Shown here in pieces: positions 1-7,662 of a stretch of DNA of 7,662 nucleotides. The DNA lies in the IMG/VR virus record IMGVR_UViG_3300028952_000024, positions 1-7,662 of that record; one strand, given 5' to 3'. The notes beneath the pieces are model-generated. The model saw only the letters and a program-made list of their open reading frames with translations. It was not told the DNA's origin and did no database searches. The stretch's first letter is position 1, and every line of letters begins with the position of its first letter. This DNA comes from a virus (lineage: Duplodnaviria; Heunggongvirae; Uroviricota; Caudoviricetes). The position numbers and the translations under genes are program-made.

Positions 1-477
1 TTATCTTACTCGGTAAGCATGTTCCAACACCAATCTAGCTAAATCAGTTTGTTGATTTGATAAATCGACTTCATACGTAAAACATAGTAAAGATAATACT
101 CTTGCAAATTTAACTCGTACTTTTTGCAAAGATTTATAAAAAAGTACTTCATCTGTCGAATTTTGATGCTTATATAATAACATTAAATTTTGACTTAGAG
201 TGTGGATTAAATCTAATATTAAATGTTGCGCTTGCTTGGATTTTATGTCCAATCTTAGTTGCTCTGTTTTATCTTTGATTGATTCTAAGCTTTTGATTAC
301 TGCTTGGGAAACCTCTGAATCGAATGGTGCAGTTAAAACCTTTTTACCTTCAAGATAACTGAAATATTTCTCAAACAGTTTCTTATCCGGATCAGATATA
401 AATGGAATCAACTCTTTAGCTGTGATGCCCGAGATGGATGCGACATTTGCTAAACCACCAATTATTTCTAAAAACAA
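1..477 (-). CDS. hypothetical small protein, 158 aa; tentative HEPN-like fold (C-terminal Rx4HxY motif)
   Basis: Complete ORF on the minus strand. The start is TTG (complement of 475-477), preceded by a canonical AGGAGG Shine-Dalgarno (complement of 484-489) with a 6-nt spacer; the stop is the complement of 1-3. Very AT-rich coding sequence compared with neighbouring genes. The last residues ...LARLVLEHAYRVR contain R148-x4-H153-x-Y155 (encoded at 13-36). No homology search was possible. Confidence 0.6.
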   Translation of the reverse strand: MFLEIIGGLANVASISGITAKELIPFISDPDKKLFEKYFSYLEGKKVLTAPFDSEVSQAVIKSLESIKDKTEQLRLDIKSKQAQHLILDLIHTLSQNLMLLYKHQNSTDEVLFYKSLQKVRVKFARVLSLLCFTYEVDLSNQQTDLARLVLEHAYRVR

Positions 478-910
478 TTTCGGCCTCCTAGTGATAATTT
501 AGATAATTAGACTATTTTTTAACTACTAAGTCTCGAAAAGTAGAAGTGTCCATTTGAGTTAGGATGTTATAGATAATACTACGATCGTTTGGGATGCACT
601 ACTACCAGATTTGCTACATTACGTAAATTTAGCTATCTAGATAAAACGGCTATAATCACTCAGTAATAATTTCAATACTAAACATCCCTATGTTGCCCGA
701 CCAGATTGTGTTTATCACAATTCTTGGTATTAGGCTTTATTCCATTCATGAGTAAACGTCCGCTCCTGGCACATAGCAGTCCTAGAGACACTGGCGTAAA
801 GCCATGGAGGATCGGTGGGAGGAGACGCTAATCCTTTCATACAAAAAATATGTAAAATCAATAACGGCTGTAAATCATTCAATACTCGCCCTATCGGAAG
901 TTCACCAGCC

Positions 911-970
911 AACCGCAGCACGTTCTTGCATACGACGTGGCTGCGGTTTCAACTCCCGCCAGCTCCACCA
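911..970 (+). repeat. att-like repeat A: hairpin arm plus a core resembling the 3' end of the tmRNA gene ssrA
   Basis: Positions 943-970 (GCGGTTTCAACTCCCGCCAGCTCCACCA) match the recalled E. coli ssrA 3' terminus (T-arm, acceptor 3' strand, CCA) with one or two mismatches. Sequence upstream of 943 shows no tmRNA features, so this is a partial copy and not a gene. Positions 913-946 form a 10-bp stem with one bulge and a 13-nt loop. About 45 bp of the arm recurs at 5082-5126. Confidence 0.5.
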
Positions 971-1097
971 ATCATGATTGGACGGTGTAAGGACAACACC
1001 AACAAAAACAGGAAGTTAGCAGTCTCAGCAGGACACCGACCAGACGGTGAGGAGACAAAAAAGGATACGCAAAGGAGCCGCGGCTCTCGAGTGACAC

Positions 1098-1128
1098 AAA
1101 AGCCCGCTTATGCGGGCTTTTTGTTTTT
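1098..1128 (+). terminator. Rho-independent terminator
   Basis: GC-rich stem AGCCCGC (1101-1107) and GCGGGCT (1112-1118) around a TTAT loop, extended by A:T pairs and followed by a T-tract (TTTTGTTTTT, 1119-1128). Confidence 0.7.
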
Positions 1129-1198
1129 CCCTTAAGTTCCTAGCCGCTTATCTATAACTATGGAAAAATGTTAACCCTGACTGTATGTTAACAAAGGG

Positions 1199-2413
1199 AT
1201 GTATATGTCGGTTTTTCATAACTGGCTGCTTGATATCGCAAGCGGGAATTACTTTATCTACATCAAACGCCTTTCTGCAAACGACACAGGCGCAACAGGT
1301 GGCCATCAGGTCGGACTTTATATCCCCTCAAATATCGTTGAAAAGCTTTTTCCATCTATCAATCATACTCGCGAACTGAACCCTTCAGTCTTCCTTACTG
1401 CGCATGTATCATCCCATGATTGCCCTGATACCCAAGCACGCGCAATTTATTACAACAACCGTTATTTTGGTAAGACCCGAAACGAAAAAAGAATTACGCG
1501 CTGGGGGAGAGGAAGTCCATTACAGAACCCTGAAAATACAGGAGCCCTCACAATTCTTGCTTTCAGGTTAAACGAACAGAACACTGACTGTTCCGAGGTA
1601 GATATATGGGTCTGCGTCAATCCCGATGAAGAGGATATCATCGAGTCTGCTATTGGCGAAATCATACCTGGAACCCTAATTTCCGGCCCTGCCGGACAAA
1701 TTTTGGGCGGATTGTCTCTTCAGCAAACTCCAGTAAATCATAAATATGTTATTCCTGAAGACTGGAAGAAGCGTTTTCCTTCTGGAAACGAAATTATTCA
1801 ATATGCTGCTGGCCATTATGCTAAAAACTCCAAGGATCCAGATGAGCAACTGATTGACCGTCGGCGTGTCGAGTATGATATTTTTCTACTCGTCGAGGAA
1901 TTACATGTTCTTGATATTATTAAGAAAGGATTCGATTCTGTAGATGAGTTTATTGCATTAGCCAACTCTGTCAGTAATCGACGTAAATCAAGGGCAGGCA
2001 AATCACTTGAACTTCACCTAGAGAAGCTTTTTATCGAGCACGGACTACGGCATTTCTCCACTCAGGCAGTTACTGAAGGTAATAAAAAACCAGATTTCCT
2101 GTTTCCTTCAGCAGAGGCATATCATAACGTTGAATTTCCTGTAGAAAACTTACGTATGCTGGCAGTAAAGACCACCTGCAAAGATCGCTGGCGTCAGATA
2201 CTGAATGAAGCAGATAAAATCCATCAGGTACATTTATTTACACTGCAAGAAGGTGTTTCTTCAGCACAATACCGAGAAATGAAAGATGCGGGTGTCAGAC
2301 TCGTTGTACCATCAACTTTACATAAAAAATACCCAGAAGCAGTTAGAGAAGAATTAATAACGCTCGGAGCATTCATTACTGAGCTGATAGAGCTTTACGC
2401 TGAACTATCATAG
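1199..2413 (+). CDS. ecoRIIR: type IIE restriction endonuclease, EcoRII family (CCWGG)
   Basis: 404-aa ORF, the length I recall for R.EcoRII. The N-terminal effector-domain sequence (SVFHNWLL...YIKRLSANDTGATGGHQVGLYIP) matches my recollection of EcoRII. The C-terminal half carries a PD-(D/E)XK-type signature (KKPDFLFP ... LAVKTTCKDRW). AAGGG lies immediately upstream of the ATG at 1199; a second in-frame ATG at 1205 is an alternative start. It is convergent with a Dcm-like methyltransferase. Percent identity was not computed. Confidence 0.9.
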   Translation: MYMSVFHNWLLDIASGNYFIYIKRLSANDTGATGGHQVGLYIPSNIVEKLFPSINHTRELNPSVFLTAHVSSHDCPDTQARAIYYNNRYFGKTRNEKRITRWGRGSPLQNPENTGALTILAFRLNEQNTDCSEVDIWVCVNPDEEDIIESAIGEIIPGTLISGPAGQILGGLSLQQTPVNHKYVIPEDWKKRFPSGNEIIQYAAGHYAKNSKDPDEQLIDRRRVEYDIFLLVEELHVLDIIKKGFDSVDEFIALANSVSNRRKSRAGKSLELHLEKLFIEHGLRHFSTQAVTEGNKKPDFLFPSAEAYHNVEFPVENLRMLAVKTTCKDRWRQILNEADKIHQVHLFTLQEGVSSAQYREMKDAGVRLVVPSTLHKKYPEAVREELITLGAFITELIELYAELS

Positions 2414-2418
2414 GCTGA

Positions 2419-2441
2419 CTCCCGGCTTAAAAGGCCGGGAG
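2419..2441. terminator. hairpin between convergent R and M genes (probable bidirectional terminator)
   Basis: The 34-bp gap between the stop codons (2413 and 2448) contains a stem of about 9 bp, CTCCCGGCT (2419-2427) pairing with GGCCGGGAG (2433-2441), around a 5-nt loop. There is no strong U-tract on either side, so function is inferred from position. Confidence 0.5.
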
Positions 2442-2447
2442 ATGTTC

Positions 2448-3881
2448 TCAAGGCTGCCCAGTCTTACCAGCATCAGCAGAAACAGCTTTGAGGATATAGG
2501 GTTCCAGAAGTCTGGCAACAGCTTCAAATACTGGCACCACAACTGAGTTACCGAACTGCCGATATGACTGAGTATCTGAAACCGGAATACGGAATGGTTT
2601 CCCTCCAGGTTTTTCAAATCCCATAAGGCGTGCGCACTCTCGGGGAGTCAGCCTGCGTGGTCGACGAGCCTGATTACTCTCATTCATAAAGTCAGCCTCT
2701 CCCGTTGCCATATCCCAACCACGATCAATAAGAATTTCTGATCCATCTTTGTGATATCTGGCAGAAAGTGTGCGTGCAATGCTTTCCTTATTCTCAGGAT
2801 TGACCAACCCAAAGCCAAAACCATTCCCCTTGGCTGCATGCTTTTTGGCGTAGTTATAAAGGTACTCCCATAGTTTTGGCGTAAGTATATATTTACTGTC
2901 GACTACAGGCTCCAGCAATTCACCAAATGATGGGCGGTGTTCCGGATAAAAACGACTGATATCACGCAAGGTAAACCCCTTGTGAATATTCAGATCTCGT
3001 CTAAATCCGACCAGAACAATGCGTTCACGATGCTGAGGCAAAAAATGCTTCCCATCGATAATCTTTGGATCGTTTTTTCCCATTTCTGCAGCATCGGCAA
3101 CTTCGTAGCCCAGCTCGTCAAGGGTCTCCATAATGACTTTGAAAGTTTTACCCTTATCATGGCTCTTCAGATTTTTGACATTTTCCAGCACAAAAATTGC
3201 CGGTTTTTTTGCTCGTATAATACGTGCCACGTCAAAAAAAAGTGTTCCTTGTGCTTCACATTCAAAACCATGCGCACGACCAAGTGAGTTTTTCTTACTA
3301 ACACCAGCAAGGCTAAATGGCTGGCACGGGAACCCCGCAAGAAGCACATCATGATCCGGCACATGCTCATCAATATATGCATAAGCATCCGTTTCCAATA
3401 CATCGGTTTTATCACTCAGCGTGACTTCCCGAATATCGAGATTGAATTTATGCACCTGTTCATCGTTAAACCAGTTGGCCTTGTATGTACGCACAGCATC
3501 TTTATTCCATTCACTGGTAAAAACACACTGGCCTCCAATGGCCTCAAAACCTTTCCGTATCCCTCCAATTCCAGCAAATAAGTCAATGAAGCGGAAAGCA
3601 TATTCCGGATGGTTTGCAGGTGGTTCTGGTAGCATCTTACGCAGAAGAGACTCTTCTACTGAAGTCAACGATTTTGGTAAACACTTGCCATTAATCCAGC
3701 GGTTAATGGTTTCACGGCTCCACTCATTTTTTCCGACTTTTCTCAGTAATTCAGCCACATACTTCTGATCATAGATTTCCAGCACTTTCTCGATAAGCTT
3801 TTTATCATTTTCCTGTCGCAGCTTTTCTTCCGCCTCGGCTTCCTTCAGCAGATGCTGTGCCAACACTTCAAATTCAGACAT
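2448..3881 (-). CDS. ecoRIIM: DNA (cytosine-5)-methyltransferase, EcoRII/Dcm family (CCWGG)
   Basis: 477 aa from the ATG that is the complement of 3879-3881, with GGAGG (complement of 3886-3890) 4 nt upstream. C5-methyltransferase motifs are all present: FAGIGG (motif I), FPCQPFS (catalytic Cys, motif IV), ENVKNL (motif VI), [23 protein letters not shown] (motif X). The N-terminus MSEFEVLAQ...LRQENDKKL...[21 protein letters not shown] matches my recollection of M.EcoRII and differs from chromosomal Dcm. Confidence 0.92.
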
Positions 3882-4242
3882 AATTCCTCCAAGGGGTCTA
3901 ATGGGTGAAACTTTATCACTCATTCAACCCAGAAGGAAATGTTTTATCTGGATATTTAAACAGTGACTACAACGTAATCTAGCACTGGTGATGCTTTGTT
4001 AGGCATAGAGAATCATTCTATATACGGCTAATGACAGAAAAACAGCAGACAAGTAGTTTGTTCATAAATTAACGCATACTATGTGTCTACGGTTTTCGAG
4101 ACCGGTCCAATCATCAAACGAAACATAAAATTAGCTCACATTATGAGGAAAAGTATCTTTTTTGTACTATGTAAATTCAAAGGCTTAGCCTCATTTCTCC
4201 GATGGTTTTCTCAACACTACTGGTTGTGAGCCCTTGCAATGA

Positions 4243-5061
<819 letters not shown>

Positions 5062-5081
5062 GTCTTTAAGTGATAAGCATA

Positions 5082-5137
5082 AACCGCAGCACGATCTTCT
5101 TGCATACGACGTGCTACGGTTTCATTTATCTCCGACC
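5082..5137 (+). repeat. repeat B: degenerate copy of the repeat A arm, hairpin-forming
   Basis: Positions 5082-5126 align with 911-951 (AACCGCAGCACG..TTGCATACGACGTG..CGGTTTCA) with a 3-bp indel and a few mismatches; the ssrA-like core is not conserved beyond GGTTTCA. Stem 5084-5093 with 5110-5119 (9 bp plus one mismatch) and a 16-nt loop. It sits between the convergent GIY-YIG and invertase genes and overlaps the last codons of the invertase. Confidence 0.45.
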
Positions 5138-5676
5138 GGAAACTTCTTATACAGTGTCGATATACCAACATCATAGATGATCGCCACCTTCTGGCGAGGA
5201 ACGCCTGATGCAATTAATCGCCCGGCCTGCGCCCATTGTTCTGGTGTAAGTTTGGGACGACGTCCCCCAATTCGTCCCTGTGCGCGAGCAGCTTCCAGTC
5301 CAGCTTTTGTTCGTTCAACAATCAGTTCTCGTTCCATTTCAGCCAGGGCACCCATCACATGAAAGAAAAAACGCCCCATCGGTGTGCTGGTATCAATAGC
5401 ATCCGTCAGGCTGCGAAAATTAACGCCACGTTCGCGCAACTCCTCAACCAGAATGACCAGATGCCGCATACTACGCCCCAGCCGATCCAGCTTCCAGACA
5501 ACCAGAGTGTCACCTGCCGATAATGTCCTGAGCAGCTTTTTCAGTCCTGGTCTGTAGGACTTTGTACCGCTTATCTTGTCTTCAAAAATCAGCTCACATC
5601 CTGCACAGTTCAGCGCATTACGTTGTAGATCGGTATTCTGGTCATTTGTTGATACACGTACATAGCCAATAAGCAT
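5122..5676 (-). CDS. pin: serine-recombinase DNA invertase, Pin/Gin/Hin/Cin family
   Basis: 184 aa from the ATG that is the complement of 5674-5676, with AGGGGG 6 nt upstream. The N-terminus MLIGYVRVSTNDQNTDLQ holds the catalytic serine; conserved LVVWKLDRLGRS, FFHVMGALAEMERELI and GRIGGRRPK follow, then a C-terminal helix-turn-helix (...ISTLYKKFP). It lies immediately beside an inverted-repeat-bounded segment. The longer ORF starting at 5712 is rejected because those codons lie inside the inverted repeat. Confidence 0.93.
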   Translation of the reverse strand: MLIGYVRVSTNDQNTDLQRNALNCAGCELIFEDKISGTKSYRPGLKKLLRTLSAGDTLVVWKLDRLGRSMRHLVILVEELRERGVNFRSLTDAIDTSTPMGRFFFHVMGALAEMERELIVERTKAGLEAARAQGRIGGRRPKLTPEQWAQAGRLIASGVPRQKVAIIYDVGISTLYKKFPVGDK

Positions 5677-5681
5677 GTTAA

Positions 5682-5757
5682 ATCCCCCTGGTAAAAGCAG
5701 GAATGATGCCATTTGCTTGTTATTTCTTCATTTTCATAAACGTTGGTTTGGGAGAAG
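5682..5757. repeat. left inverted repeat of the invertible segment (IR-L)
   Basis: Positions 5682-5757 are the exact reverse complement of 7587-7662 (76 of 76, aligned by eye). Identity stops at 5758 on the inner side; the outer extent is unknown because the partner is cut by the window end. Confidence 0.9.
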
Positions 5758-6119
5758 CGGCAAAACGGGATGTGGGTAACGGGCAAAACCAAATTCCTGA
5801 TATGTCAGCGTGGGAGTGTGGGGGAGATACAACGACGGGATGGAGGCGAAGCCCGGATGGTTATATTGAACAATGGGGGCTAACTGGGGCCACAATAAAT
5901 GAAGTTTTGATTAATTTTCCTATCCCATTTCCGACAGGCGTCATTTCTATTAATGAACATGACCATGCTCCTGTGCCAGGGAAAATGTCAGTATGGCAAT
6001 TCTATCAATTGACTAACTCAAGTGTCATGGCAGATAACCTGGGATCTCTTGATAAAGGAAATCCATCCTTCAATGTTCCAACTGTCGCTGGTTGCCGCTG
6101 GTTTGCCACAGGAAGATAA
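5703..6119 (+). CDS. alternative tail-fibre C-terminal variable cassette, silent in this orientation
   Basis: The reading frame starts inside IR-L and shares the IR-encoded peptide MMPFACYFFIFINVGLGE with the minus-strand fibre, then diverges. An in-frame TAA at 5679-5681 just outside IR-L means no constant region is fused here. Its stop (6117-6119) lies 1 nt before the downstream assembly gene start. Confidence 0.7.
   Translation: MMPFACYFFIFINVGLGEAAKRDVGNGQNQIPDMSAWECGGDTTTGWRRSPDGYIEQWGLTGATINEVLINFPIPFPTGVISINEHDHAPVPGKMSVWQFYQLTNSSVMADNLGSLDKGNPSFNVPTVAGCRWFATGR
5731..5756. other. putative invertase crossover site (gix/hix/pix-like, 12-2-12)
   Basis: TTTTCATAAACG-TT-GGTTTGGGAGAA fits the recalled Gin/Hin-family site pattern (TTnnnnnAAACC-nn-GGTTTnnnAnAA) with an imperfect dyad. 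It lies at the inner edge of IR-L, exactly where the two alternative fibre reading frames diverge. Confidence 0.5.
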
Positions 6120-6120
6120 A

Positions 6121-6561
6121 ATGAGTAAATATCTTTACGATGCTAAAACTAATATGTTTTACCCATTTACTCTGGAAAGTCAGTATAAGAAGTCTGGGTT
6201 ATGGCCTCATAATGGAGTTGAAGTTGATGAGGATATATTTATTAAGTACCTGTCCCCACCTCCAGGGAAAGTGAGAGTTGCGGGTGATGATGGCTATCCT
6301 GCATGGGATGACGTACCGCCGCTAACTCATGAAGAACAACTGTCAGAAGCGGAACGAAAAAAACAGGCACTCATAAATCGAGTTAATGAATATATTAACA
6401 GTAAGCAGTGGCCAGGAAAGGCTGCTATTGGTCGTCTGAAAGGTGAGGAACTGGCGCAATATAATTTATGGCTGGATTATCTTGACGCACTGGAACTGGT
6501 CGATACTTCCAGTGCTCCAGATATTGAATGGCCTACGCCTCCGGCTGTTCAGGCCAGATGA
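6121..6561 (+). CDS. tfa: tail-fibre assembly protein, partner of the silent cassette
   Basis: 146 aa from the ATG at 6121, tightly coupled to the preceding stop. The C-terminal motif LELVDTSSAPDIEWP is typical of Tfa chaperones. Its 3' end overlaps the convergent tfa gene by 29 bp. Confidence 0.8.
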   Translation: MSKYLYDAKTNMFYPFTLESQYKKSGLWPHNGVEVDEDIFIKYLSPPPGKVRVAGDDGYPAWDDVPPLTHEEQLSEAERKKQALINRVNEYINSKQWPGKAAIGRLKGEELAQYNLWLDYLDALELVDTSSAPDIEWPTPPAVQAR

Positions 6562-7126
6562 TATCCGGCGCGGTGCTGGTATCTGTTGCCGTCACCGCGT
6601 CAATGTAATCCAGCACGGCGTTAAGTCGGGTTGTTTCTGCCTGCGTCAGCTTCCGCCCGGCCTGCAATTTCAGTTGAATCAGACTGATGGAAGCCATTGC
6701 AGCATCAATCAGCGACTGGCGCTGTGCTTCTGCCGCGTCTACTGAGGCACTATGCTGTGCCTCAGTATCTGTCACCCATTTCTCACCATCCCATTTATCG
6801 TATGGCGTTAACGGTGAAAGCGTGACATAACCGTCTTTGATGGCACCGATATAATCCACTGTAACAGCTGCGCCATTTTCGATTGAGTAAGCAGTCTCAT
6901 TGCGGTGGTCTTCTTCATGGCTCCATCCCTTACCCGTAAATACTGCCACTTTCCCCGGAATGTATTCGCCCGGGTCAATACCAGTGGAACAGGCGGGCAT
7001 ACTTACACCAGTATTAATATATTCATCAGACCAGCCAGTATATTCAGACGTTACTGCATCATAATAAAAACAACGCATATCACCCGGTACTGTAGCCAGC
7101 CCATTTTTATCAAAAACAGGTTTCAT
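6533..7126 (-). CDS. tfa: tail-fibre assembly protein, partner of the expressed cassette
   Basis: 197 aa. The C-terminal motif DTSTAPDIIWPEQP is Tfa-like. Its start codon overlaps the upstream fibre stop by 1 nt (TAATG on the minus strand), implying translational coupling. Confidence 0.85.
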   Translation of the reverse strand: MKPVFDKNGLATVPGDMRCFYYDAVTSEYTGWSDEYINTGVSMPACSTGIDPGEYIPGKVAVFTGKGWSHEEDHRNETAYSIENGAAVTVDYIGAIKDGYVTLSPLTPYDKWDGEKWVTDTEAQHSASVDAAEAQRQSLIDAAMASISLIQLKLQAGRKLTQAETTRLNAVLDYIDAVTATDTSTAPDIIWPEQPEA

Positions 7127-7662
7127 TATTTAGCCCTTACTAAAAAGTTGAATGCAATGTTACGTGGGCGTGTTTCGGTGCCGCCTGGTACATTAAAAGC
7201 CGCAGCGGTGCCACTACCATCATTCTGACTAATACCACTCGTATATATGCCGTTCGCATTACTCTGGAGGGCGAAAACCGTTCTTGTTCCAGTACCAGCA
7301 GAAGGACCGTAGTATTGCAAAGTAAATTGTTTCATCAGGTCAGACTGCGTACTAAGTAATCCACGTCCACTATCTACACCACGACCATCATCCCAGATAC
7401 GAATGAAATCACCGCGGGCTTCAGGTAATACCAGCGAAGGAAACACTTTCGCCAGCACAGGGTAATCAGTGGCAGAGAATTTCGCGCCGTTGAACTTCAA
7501 AAACACCATACCGGACCAGCTGTCGATTACAGTATTTGGCATTGCAGCGGACGGCCAGAAGAACGGAACGCCAATAGCTGGAGCACCTTCTCCCAAACCA
7601 ACGTTTATGAAAATGAAGAAATAACAAGCAAATGGCATCATTCCTGCTTTTACCAGGGGGAT
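7126..7662 (-). CDS. tail-fibre protein, C-terminal variable part (5'-partial; gene continues beyond the window)
   Basis: The frame is open from the window edge through IR-R (...IPLVKAGMMPFACYFFIFINVGLGE) into a region with the classic tail-fibre C-terminal signature (GVPFFWPSAAMP...FNGAKFSATDYP...LPEARGDFIRIWDDGRGVDSGRGLLSTQSD...RPRNIAFNFLVRAK). The stop is the complement of 7126-7128. Confidence 0.85.
   Translation of the reverse strand: MPLVKAGMMPFACYFFIFINVGLGEGAPAIGVPFFWPSAAMPNTVIDSWSGMVFLKFNGAKFSATDYPVLAKVFPSLVLPEARGDFIRIWDDGRGVDSGRGLLSTQSDLMKQFTLQYYGPSAGTGTRTVFALQSNANGIYTSGISQNDGSGTAAAFNVPGGTETRPRNIAFNFLVRAK
7587..7662. repeat. right inverted repeat of the invertible segment (IR-R), truncated by the window end
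   Basis: Reverse complement of 5682-5757. The repeat may continue beyond position 7662. Confidence 0.9.
7588..7613. other. putative invertase crossover site, inverted partner
   Basis: Reverse-complement partner of 5731-5756, inside IR-R. Confidence 0.5.

What the first reader, a model, noticed from the sequence alone, without database searches (positions are those of the whole stretch)
5122..7662. Pin-type invertible tail-fibre switch whose current orientation can be read from the sequence
Perfect inverted repeats of at least 76 bp flank two alternative fibre C-terminal cassettes with their own assembly chaperones. The invertase gene abuts IR-L and is transcribed away from the segment, as gin is in Mu. 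In this orientation the minus-strand cassette (7126-7662 plus tfa at 6533-7126) is in frame with a fibre gene entering from beyond the right window edge. The plus-strand cassette is blocked by a TAA at 5679-5681 just outside IR-L. The repeats end exactly where the two fibre frames diverge after the shared peptide ...FINVGLGE. The two convergent tfa genes overlap by 29 bp (6533-6561).
Basis: partly seen in the sequence, partly recalled or inferred. Interest (0 to 1): 0.45.

Follow-up and report, generated by a model that had tools for sequence, protein, structure and literature searches.

The report
Known Pin/e14 tail-fibre inversion switch
This is an ordinary copy of the long-known E. coli e14-type Pin switch that flips a DNA segment to swap phage tail-fibre tips; the striking 76-base perfect repeat, and the idea that the current orientation can be read from it, most likely come from a short-read contig ending inside the switch.

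Summary
There is a 76-nt perfect inverted repeat, a 184-aa serine invertase, two convergent fibre-tip cassettes each with a Caudo_TAP chaperone, a TAA at 5679-5681, and a 29-bp overlap of the two tfa genes.

The system is the e14 P-segment/Pin switch:
- Pin is 94.6% identical to K-12 PinE.
- The pin leader and the 26-bp crossover site are base-for-base those of K-12 e14.

The same prophage occurs in both orientations in other E. coli assemblies (strain E4 and L003 versus L006-L012 and L014). In all 12 loci that span both junctions, K-12 included, the fibre-side site is CTCTCGAAAACC-TT-GGTTTGGGAGAA. It is preceded by fibre coding DNA (...KTALENLGLGE). The true perfect repeat is therefore only 15-16 nt.

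Window 7602-7662 instead carries the pin-side half-site plus the pin leader, and it stops exactly 76 nt (k-1 for k=77) past the last unique base. The window thus holds both pin-proximal junctions. This is best explained as a contig end built from DNA containing both orientations.

The switch reading is right. The 76-bp repeat, the "shared peptide" and the orientation call are not. The system is already known and of low interest.

The parts
5122..5676 (-). pin, a serine DNA invertase of 184 aa (MLIGYVRVSTNDQ..., catalytic Ser9)
   Evidence: Pfam Resolvase 4e-51 plus HTH_7 5e-13. 174/184 aa identical to K-12 PinE and 142/193 to Mu Gin. Best solved structure is Gin 3UJ3, E=4e-93. The first 200 nt are 95% identical to K-12 pinE, where the Fis enhancer is expected (enhancer inferred, not tested).
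5677..5730 (.). pin leader (includes 'P48', 5682-5730); also encodes the first residues (from ATG 5703) of the pin-proximal ORF
   Evidence: Identical base for base to the pinE leader of K-12 e14. Always adjacent to pin in relatives.
5731..5756 (+). pin-side 26-bp crossover site TTTTCATAAACG|TT|GGTTTGGGAGAA (centre 5743-5744)
   Evidence: Same sequence as in K-12 e14. It aligns in register with Mu gixR (TTATCCAAAACC|TC|GGTTTACAGGAA) and has the same distance to the invertase start. Its core TTGGTTTGGGAGAAG(G) is the published e14 P-segment repeat (PMC12529663).
5703..6119 (+). pin-proximal ORF of 138 aa: leader-encoded MMPFACYFFIFINVGLGE plus the 'plus' fibre C-terminal cassette (variable part 5757-6119)
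   Evidence: Pfam Gp53-like_C 1e-10. PHROGs tail fibre / virion structural protein C-termini. In L003 and E4 the same 120 aa are fused to the 101-aa constant region, giving a 221-aa fibre.
6121..6561 (+). tail fibre assembly chaperone for the plus cassette (146 aa)
   Evidence: Pfam Caudo_TAP 8e-35.
6533..7126 (-). tail fibre assembly chaperone for the minus cassette (197 aa); overlaps the other tfa by 29 bp
   Evidence: Pfam Caudo_TAP 6e-28; ORF coordinates.
7126..7587 (-). 'minus' fibre C-terminal cassette (153 aa variable part)
   Evidence: PHROGs tail (collar) fibre C-termini, 1e-49. In L006-L012 and L014 it is fused to the constant region, giving a 254-aa fibre.
7587..7601 (.). genuine right arm of the inverted repeat (inner half-site plus central dinucleotide plus 1 nt); pairs with 5743-5757
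   Evidence: This is the only part of the repeat shared by the pin-side and fibre-side sites in all 11 related loci that span both junctions; K-12 e14 has the same core.
7602..7662 (.). second copy of the pin-side outer half-site plus pin leader, ending the window. Interpreted as the junction of the opposite orientation captured at a contig end, not as fibre constant region.
   Evidence: Identical to the E4/L003 junction minus-cassette|site|leader|pin. Relatives with this left junction have CTCTCGAAAACC plus fibre coding DNA here instead. The segment-only short contig L004 shows the same double pin-type ends.
5081..5122 (-). stem-loop immediately after the pin stop codon (likely terminator shared with the convergent GIY-YIG gene)
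   Evidence: Read from the sequence. An ~89% similar copy lies at 911-951.

Best explanation
The locus is an e14-type P-segment switch in a Mu-like-tailed E. coli prophage. Pin, a Fis-dependent serine invertase of the Hin/Gin/Cin/Pin family, recombines two inverted 26-bp sites at their central TT/AA dinucleotide.

One site lies 67 nt upstream of pin. The other lies at the end of a 101-aa constant fibre N-terminus (...KTALENLGLGE) that sits beyond the right edge of the window. Inversion of the ~1.86-kb segment fuses that N-terminus either to the minus cassette (254-aa fibre, with the Tfa at 6533-7126) or to the plus cassette (221-aa Gp53-like fibre, with the Tfa at 6121-6561).

The cassette parked next to pin is left as a short ORF that starts in the pin leader.

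The 76-nt perfect repeat is not part of this mechanism. The window is the end of a short-read contig. After the minus cassette, the contig follows reads from the opposite orientation into the pin leader. It stops where the next 77-mer would be the reverse complement of one already used.

The contig therefore carries both pin-proximal junctions. This implies that both orientations were present in the sequenced DNA, and the orientation cannot be called.

Shown here: gene identities, site sequences, both orientations in near-identical elements, and the fibre fusions in relatives.

Inferred: the Fis enhancer, the contig-end mechanism, and active switching in the source culture.
For: - Identity of the system. 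Pin is 94.6% identical to K-12 PinE, and the leader and site are identical to K-12 e14. The top solved structure is Gin. The layout matches Mu, with gin transcribed away from G and the same 67-nt spacing.
- Both orientations in the same element. E. coli E4 is 99.95-100% identical over window 943-7662, but its segment is inverted relative to pin and the restriction-modification flank. L003 is 100% identical to window 1-5757 and also has the segment inverted. L006-L012 and L014 have the window's left junction.
- Site sequences. In all 11 related loci spanning both junctions the fibre-side site is CTCTCGAAAACC-TT-GGTTTGGGAGAA preceded by fibre coding DNA; pin leader never occurs there. K-12 e14 is the same.
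- Junction survey. A synthetic query joining the minus cassette, site, leader and pin found only three classes among 60 records sampled from 1905. These were the full junction with pin (248 genomes), matches ending inside the site, and pin plus leader with another cassette. No case had leader without pin.
- Precedent in another assembly. The segment-only contig L004 (1932 nt) also has pin-type sequence at both ends, and L005 ends exactly at the branch point 5743.
- Window boundaries. Window position 1 is a gene boundary, the stop codon of the DUF6650 gene. Position 7662 is not a possible start codon (ATC). That fits a gene cut by a contig end.
- Literature. The e14 P segment is 1797 bp and is flanked by TTGGTTTGGGAGAAGG repeats (PMC12529663). 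Both orientations coexist in clonal MG1655 cultures (PMC4272514).
Against: - The source contig and its reads were not found. The edge-truncated ORF is not on record. The 115-nt right-end pattern is absent from genome contigs and metagenome contigs. The contig-end reading therefore rests on inference.
- SPAdes-type graphs would give a 77-nt overlap for K=77, not 76. The k-mer argument fits only assemblers whose contigs overlap by k-1.
- The survey of complete genomes was sampled. Roughly six records, at ranks 249-254, could hide a 'leader without pin' class.
- Long natural repeats do exist in this family (0.6 kb in P1, from general knowledge), so a 76-nt repeat is not impossible in principle.
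Confidence: 0.8

Rival explanations
1. The source genome truly has inverted repeats of 76 bp or more, because its fibre constant region ends with the same 48 nt as the pin leader (...IPLVKAGMMPFACYFFIFINVGLGE). The window then shows one molecule in which the minus cassette is expressed.
For: The repeat is perfect and the minus-strand frame is open to 7662. The left junction (pin|plus cassette) is the one found in most assemblies of this element, where the minus cassette is indeed fused to the fibre.
Against: No relative has the leader sequence on the fibre side: 11 related loci, K-12 e14, and 60 sampled records of 1905. The constant region in relatives ends ...KTALENLGLGE with a different outer half-site. 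The repeat ends exactly at the window end. On the pin side the same frame is closed by TAA one codon further out.
Confidence: 0.08
2. The chimeric end comes from two co-assembled strains, or two prophage copies, fixed in opposite orientations (for example a metagenome or a mixed culture). It does not come from active switching within one clone.
For: L005, a metagenome scaffold, breaks at the same branch point. Both orientations exist as fixed states in different sequenced strains. E. coli genomes carry a median of 2 related places.
Against: Pin is intact and the sites are identical to the active K-12 system. Clonal K-12 cultures are known to hold both e14 orientations (PMC4272514). The flanks of the window are 100% identical to single-strain assemblies.
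Confidence: 0.1
3. A real rearranged locus. It could be a palindromic duplication that places a second pin leader and pin copy to the right of the segment, or a prophage remnant lacking the fibre constant region.
For: The sequence as given would be compatible with pin-segment-pin'.
Against: Nothing like this was seen in any of the related loci or in the 248 full-junction genomes, where each junction has one pin. It would also need the window to end by coincidence exactly at the repeat boundary.
Confidence: 0.02

Closest known systems
e14 P segment / PinE of E. coli K-12 (stfP-tfaP / tfaE-stfE-pinE; Plasterk & van de Putte 1985, cited in PMC4272514; PMC12529663)
   Same: Pin is 94.6% identical. 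The pin leader and pin-side site are identical, and the fibre-side site in relatives is identical. The relatives' 101-aa constant fibre N-terminus differs from K-12's at 2 of 101 residues. The order is the same: YmfQ, fibre, tfa / tfa, fibre', pin, then a restriction gene. The segment is of similar size, ~1.86 kb against 1797 bp.
   Different: The cassettes differ. The minus cassette is 40% identical to the K-12 counterpart. The plus cassette shows no detectable similarity beyond the shared first 23 aa. The Tfa proteins are 62-71% identical. The prophage sits at the proA/thrW-pao locus instead of icd. The cargo next to pin is a GIY-YIG protein plus an EcoRII restriction-modification pair instead of mcrA.
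Phage Mu G segment / Gin
   Same: The architecture matches: a constant S region, an invertible segment with Sv-U / U'-S'v, and the invertase outside the segment and transcribed away from it. The spacing from site to start codon is the same 67 nt. Gin is 74% identical.
   Different: Mu has identical gix sites on both sides (34-bp repeat, from general knowledge); here the outer half-sites differ. The fibre and chaperone proteins show no tblastn similarity to Mu S/U at E<=1e-3.
Assembly breaks at phase-variable inversions (mixed-orientation populations, as quantified for e14 in PMC4272514)
   Same: Contigs break or fold back at the short repeat, and segment-only contigs carry the same flank at both ends (L004, L005).
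   Different: This is not a biological family. It explains the 76-nt repeat rather than the switch.

Membership tests
Din-family (Hin/Gin/Cin/Pin) DNA inversion switch | Small serine recombinase with an N-terminal resolvase catalytic domain and a C-terminal HTH_7, and an intact catalytic serine | tested here: met
   Pfam Resolvase 4e-51 and HTH_7 5e-13. YVRVSTNDQ motif with Ser9 read. 94.6% identical to PinE and 74% to Gin. Gin 3UJ3 E=4e-93.
Din-family (Hin/Gin/Cin/Pin) DNA inversion switch | Two 26-bp crossover sites in inverted orientation: 12-bp half-sites around an identical central dinucleotide | tested here: met
   Sites at 5731-5756 and 7588-7613, centre TT/AA. They are identical to the K-12 e14 sites and align in register with Mu gix. 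The outer half of the right-hand site in the window is of the pin-side type. In relatives it is CTCTCGAAAACC.
Din-family (Hin/Gin/Cin/Pin) DNA inversion switch | Fis-bound recombinational enhancer within the 5' part of the invertase gene | not testable with these tools
   Only indirect evidence. The first 200 nt of pin are 95% identical to K-12 pinE and 73.5% to Mu gin. One degenerate Fis-like 15-mer at +71 is conserved in all three. No binding or function was tested.
Din-family (Hin/Gin/Cin/Pin) DNA inversion switch | The segment is found in both orientations relative to fixed flanks | tested here: met
   E4 and L003 against L006-L012 and L014, all 99.9-100% identical to the window. The window itself carries both pin-proximal junctions.
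e14 P-segment type fibre switch | A constant fibre N-terminus outside the segment is fused in frame to alternative C-termini, each followed by its own Tfa chaperone | tested here: met
   Met in relatives: 254-aa and 221-aa fibres share residues 1-101, and both chaperones are Caudo_TAP. The constant region itself lies outside the window and was not seen for the source.
   In 11 related loci only 15 nt are shared between the two sides; the K-12 e14 sites have the same core. No record had leader sequence without pin among those sampled. This could not be tested on the source reads.

The most novel reading that the evidence does not exclude
The cassette parked next to pin may not be silent. The 138-aa ORF 5703-6119 starts in the pin leader and ends in a Gp53-like_C domain. 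It has the same architecture as K-12 'StfE2', which a 2025 paper reports to block phage T2 adsorption after P-segment inversion (PMC12529663). It sits beside a GIY-YIG nuclease, an EcoRII restriction-modification pair and, in relatives, AbiTii. The switch could therefore toggle a host-protective adsorption blocker inside a defence island, with a receptor specificity different from K-12's.
Probability: 0.15. Interest if true: 0.4.

Novelty: already known. Interest (0 to 1): 0.1.

Why it matters
Biologically this adds little. It is one more copy of a switch described in the 1980s, with cassette variants that are already common in sequenced E. coli.

The practical lesson concerns method. A perfect inverted repeat that ends exactly at a contig or window edge next to an invertase can be produced by assembly of a mixed-orientation population. 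It inflates the apparent repeat length from 15 to 76 nt, creates a false 'shared peptide', and makes one cassette look fused to an upstream gene.

Read correctly, such a contig end is indirect evidence that the switch was flipping in the sequenced culture.

Tried and rejected
- tRNA and Rfam scans of the window found nothing.
- Look-up of the edge-truncated ORF 7126-7662 found nothing on record, so the source contig could not be identified.
- The exact 115-nt right-end pattern gave 0 hits in genome contigs and 0 in metagenome contigs. It gave 1 hit in viral contigs (L017). That hit is a different, ~95% related element with a minus-like cassette next to pin, not the source.
- The sigma-70 and terminator scan of 5000-7662 gave counts close to those of shuffled sequence and nothing in the pin leader, so no promoter claim is made.
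- Comparison of the cassettes and chaperones with Mu S/U/S'/U' by tblastn gave no hit at E<=1e-3.
- Comparison of the plus cassette with the K-12 gp53-like cassette showed only the leader-encoded first 23 aa matching.
- I considered whether a second prophage sharing the constant region could explain the contig end. I rejected this, because it would leave fibre-type sequence at the end, not pin-leader sequence.
- I considered small-k confusion in a multi-k assembler. I rejected this, because the true repeat (15-16 nt) is shorter than any usual k.
Full report
**1. What is in the window**

- Arms 5682-5757 and 7587-7662 are 76 nt long and 100% complementary. The right arm ends on the last base of the window.
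- A serine recombinase lies on the minus strand. The longest ORF starts at 5712. The conserved N-terminus MLIGYVRVSTNDQ starts at ATG 5676, giving 184 aa (5122-5676).
- Pfam gives Resolvase plus HTH_7 for that protein, Gp53-like_C for the plus cassette, and Caudo_TAP for both chaperones at 6121-6561 (+) and 6533-7126 (-).
- PHROGs places both cassettes among tail-fibre C-termini.
- The TAA at 5679-5681, the 29-bp tfa overlap and the common ORF start MMPFACYFFIFINVGLGE are all as described.

**2. Which system it is**

Pin is 174/184 identical to K-12 PinE and 142/193 to Mu Gin. The best solved structure is Gin (3UJ3, 4e-93).

Inside the 76-nt repeat, at its inner end, lies a 26-bp hix/gix-like site, TTTTCATAAACG|TT|GGTTTGGGAGAA, at 5731-5756. 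It is mirrored at 7613-7588.
- The whole stretch from this site to the pin ATG is base-for-base identical to the pinE leader of K-12 e14.
- It aligns in register with Mu gixR and the gin leader, with 67 nt from site centre to start codon in both.
- The core TTGGTTTGGGAGAAG(G) is the published repeat of the 1797-bp e14 P segment (PMC12529663).

**3. Relatives supply the missing right flank and both orientations**

E. coli E4 (L002) matches window 943-5081 and 5079-5757 at 100%, apart from an IS3 insertion. It matches 5738-7662 at 99.95%, but with the segment inverted relative to pin and the restriction-modification genes.

Exact-protein look-ups found the same element in both orientations. The element comprises AbiTii, DUF6650, EcoRII, a methylase, a GIY-YIG protein, pin, the segment, Mu-Gp48/YmfQ, baseplate J and further genes up to an integrase next to proA.
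- L003 is 100% identical to window 1-5757. It has the minus cassette next to pin and a 221-aa fibre.
- L006-L012 and L014 have the plus cassette next to pin and a 254-aa fibre.

The two fibres share residues 1-101 (MHRIDTKTAQ...KTALENLGLGE). That stretch differs from the K-12 e14 fibre N-terminus at 2 of 101 residues. After it, the two fibres continue with the plus or the minus cassette. A constant region therefore exists, and inversion swaps its C-terminus. The switch reading is correct.

**4. The 76-nt repeat is not real biology**

In each of the 11 related loci that span both junctions, and in K-12 e14, the fibre-side site is CTCTCGAAAACC|TT|GGTTTGGGAGAA, preceded by fibre coding DNA. The pin-side site is TTTTCATAAACG|TT|GGTTTGGGAGAA, preceded by the pin leader. 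Only 15 nt are perfectly repeated (5743-5757 / 7587-7601). This agrees with the 16 nt reported for K-12.

The window differs from its relatives only at 7602-7662. There it carries the pin-side outer half-site and leader, which is the junction of the opposite orientation (as in E4 and L003).

I built a synthetic query joining the minus cassette, site, leader and pin, and ran it against 5426 complete E. coli genomes. Among 60 records sampled from 1905 there were three classes:
- the full junction with pin (248 genomes);
- matches stopping inside the site (the fibre-fused state);
- leader plus pin with another cassette.

No record had leader without pin. At most about six unsampled ranks could hide such a case.

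Two short contigs from other assemblies show the same behaviour.
- L004 (1932 nt) is the segment with pin-type sequence at both ends.
- L005 ends exactly at the branch point 5743.

**5. Why the window ends there**

Window position 1 is the stop codon of the DUF6650 gene, so the window appears to have been cut at gene boundaries. Position 7662 gives ATC on the minus strand, which cannot be a start codon. That fits a gene truncated by a contig end.

The last 77-mer containing the last unique base (7586) ends at 7662. The next 77-mer would lie wholly within sequence already used in reverse complement (5681-5757). This step is inference.

No assembler k is smaller than the 15-16-nt true repeat. 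K-mers joining the minus cassette to the pin leader can therefore only come from molecules in the flipped state. K-mers joining the plus cassette to the leader come from the unflipped state.

The window thus holds both pin-proximal junctions. It argues that both orientations were present in the sequenced DNA, as documented for e14 in clonal K-12 cultures (PMC4272514).

Consequences:
- The orientation cannot be read from this window.
- The apparent asymmetry (TAA on the left, open frame on the right) exists only because the window stops one base short of the mirrored TAA position.
- If one had to guess, the fibre-to-minus-cassette state is the commoner one among assemblies of this element. About 24 contigs show it, against L003, E4 and probably TUM10008 (H17, not inspected) for the other state.

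**6. Mechanism**

Shown:
- An intact Pin.
- Two inverted 26-bp sites with identical inner halves and an identical central dinucleotide.
- Both orientations in near-identical elements.
- In-frame fusion of a 101-aa N-terminus to either cassette, each followed by its own chaperone.

Inferred from family knowledge:
- A Fis-bound enhancer in the 5' part of pin (95% nt identity to K-12 pinE over 200 nt).
- Cleavage at the central dinucleotide and 180-degree subunit rotation.

**7. Comparison and novelty**

This is the e14 P-segment/Pin system, with different but already widespread cassettes. Thirteen complete genomes cover at least 80% of the locus, and thousands share parts of it. It lies in a different prophage and integration site, with different restriction cargo next to pin. 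Nothing departs from the known kind. I rate it 'already known', with low interest.

The one mildly interesting open reading concerns the pin-proximal ORF 5703-6119. It has the architecture of K-12 StfE2, which is reported to block T2 adsorption (PMC12529663). Its Gp53-like part is not detectably similar to that of K-12, and nothing here tests expression.

**8. Dead ends**

- No tRNA or Rfam hits.
- The source contig was not found.
- The promoter scan was uninformative.
- There was no similarity to Mu S/U.

Noticed in passing
window 1-5061: A defence-gene cargo lies between pin and the prophage end. It comprises DUF6650 (1-477, -), the EcoRII restriction enzyme (1199-2413, +), a Dcm-type C5 methylase with DNA_meth_N (2448-3923, -) and a LEM-3-like GIY-YIG protein (4288-5061, +). 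AbiTii comes next in relatives. The cargo occupies the position that mcrA has next to pinE in K-12 e14.
   Followed up: partly
window 951-4073: The EcoRII restriction-modification pair behaves as an insertion/deletion module. In L001 and L017, sequence similar to window 755-950 is directly joined to sequence similar to 4074 onwards, without the R-M genes.
   Followed up: partly
window 911-951 and 5082-5124: A ~44-nt stem-loop (AACCGCAGCACG...CGTGCTRCGGTTT) occurs twice in direct orientation at ~89% identity, with a perfect 17-mer. One copy lies right after the pin stop codon and the other at the far side of the cargo. It is present in L001 and L017 but absent from K-12 e14. It may be a terminator or a module boundary.
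   Followed up: partly
L002 8528-9787 (E. coli E4), equivalent to window 5079-5081: An IS3 copy is inserted between pin and the GIY-YIG gene in strain E4, with a 3-bp overlap of the flanking alignments (target duplication).
   Followed up: no
window 755-950: This non-coding stretch is 88% similar to a region of L001 that is annotated as a 'capsid protein' pseudogene fragment. It is probably a decayed phage remnant.
   Followed up: no
window 6471-6488 / 6597-6614 (and Tfa residues ~70-141 / 125-195): The C-terminal thirds of the two convergent Tfa chaperones are homologous (~37% aa identity). This produces a short internal inverted repeat of 18 nt at 89% around the 29-bp overlap.
   Followed up: no
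L003, L006-L012 (relatives), flanks: The prophage sits between paoABC/yagQ-type genes and an integrase next to proA-proB-phoE-crl-frsA-gpt. By my recollection this is the thrW / CP4-6 locus of K-12, not the icd site of e14. Several assemblies show deletions of the baseplate region.
   Followed up: no
window 5703-6119: The pin-proximal ORF has its own ATG pair in the pin leader. It has the same build as K-12 'StfE2', which is reported as an adsorption blocker (PMC12529663). Gene callers in public assemblies call it as a 138-aa protein, listed in 45 blocks of the collection.
   Followed up: partly
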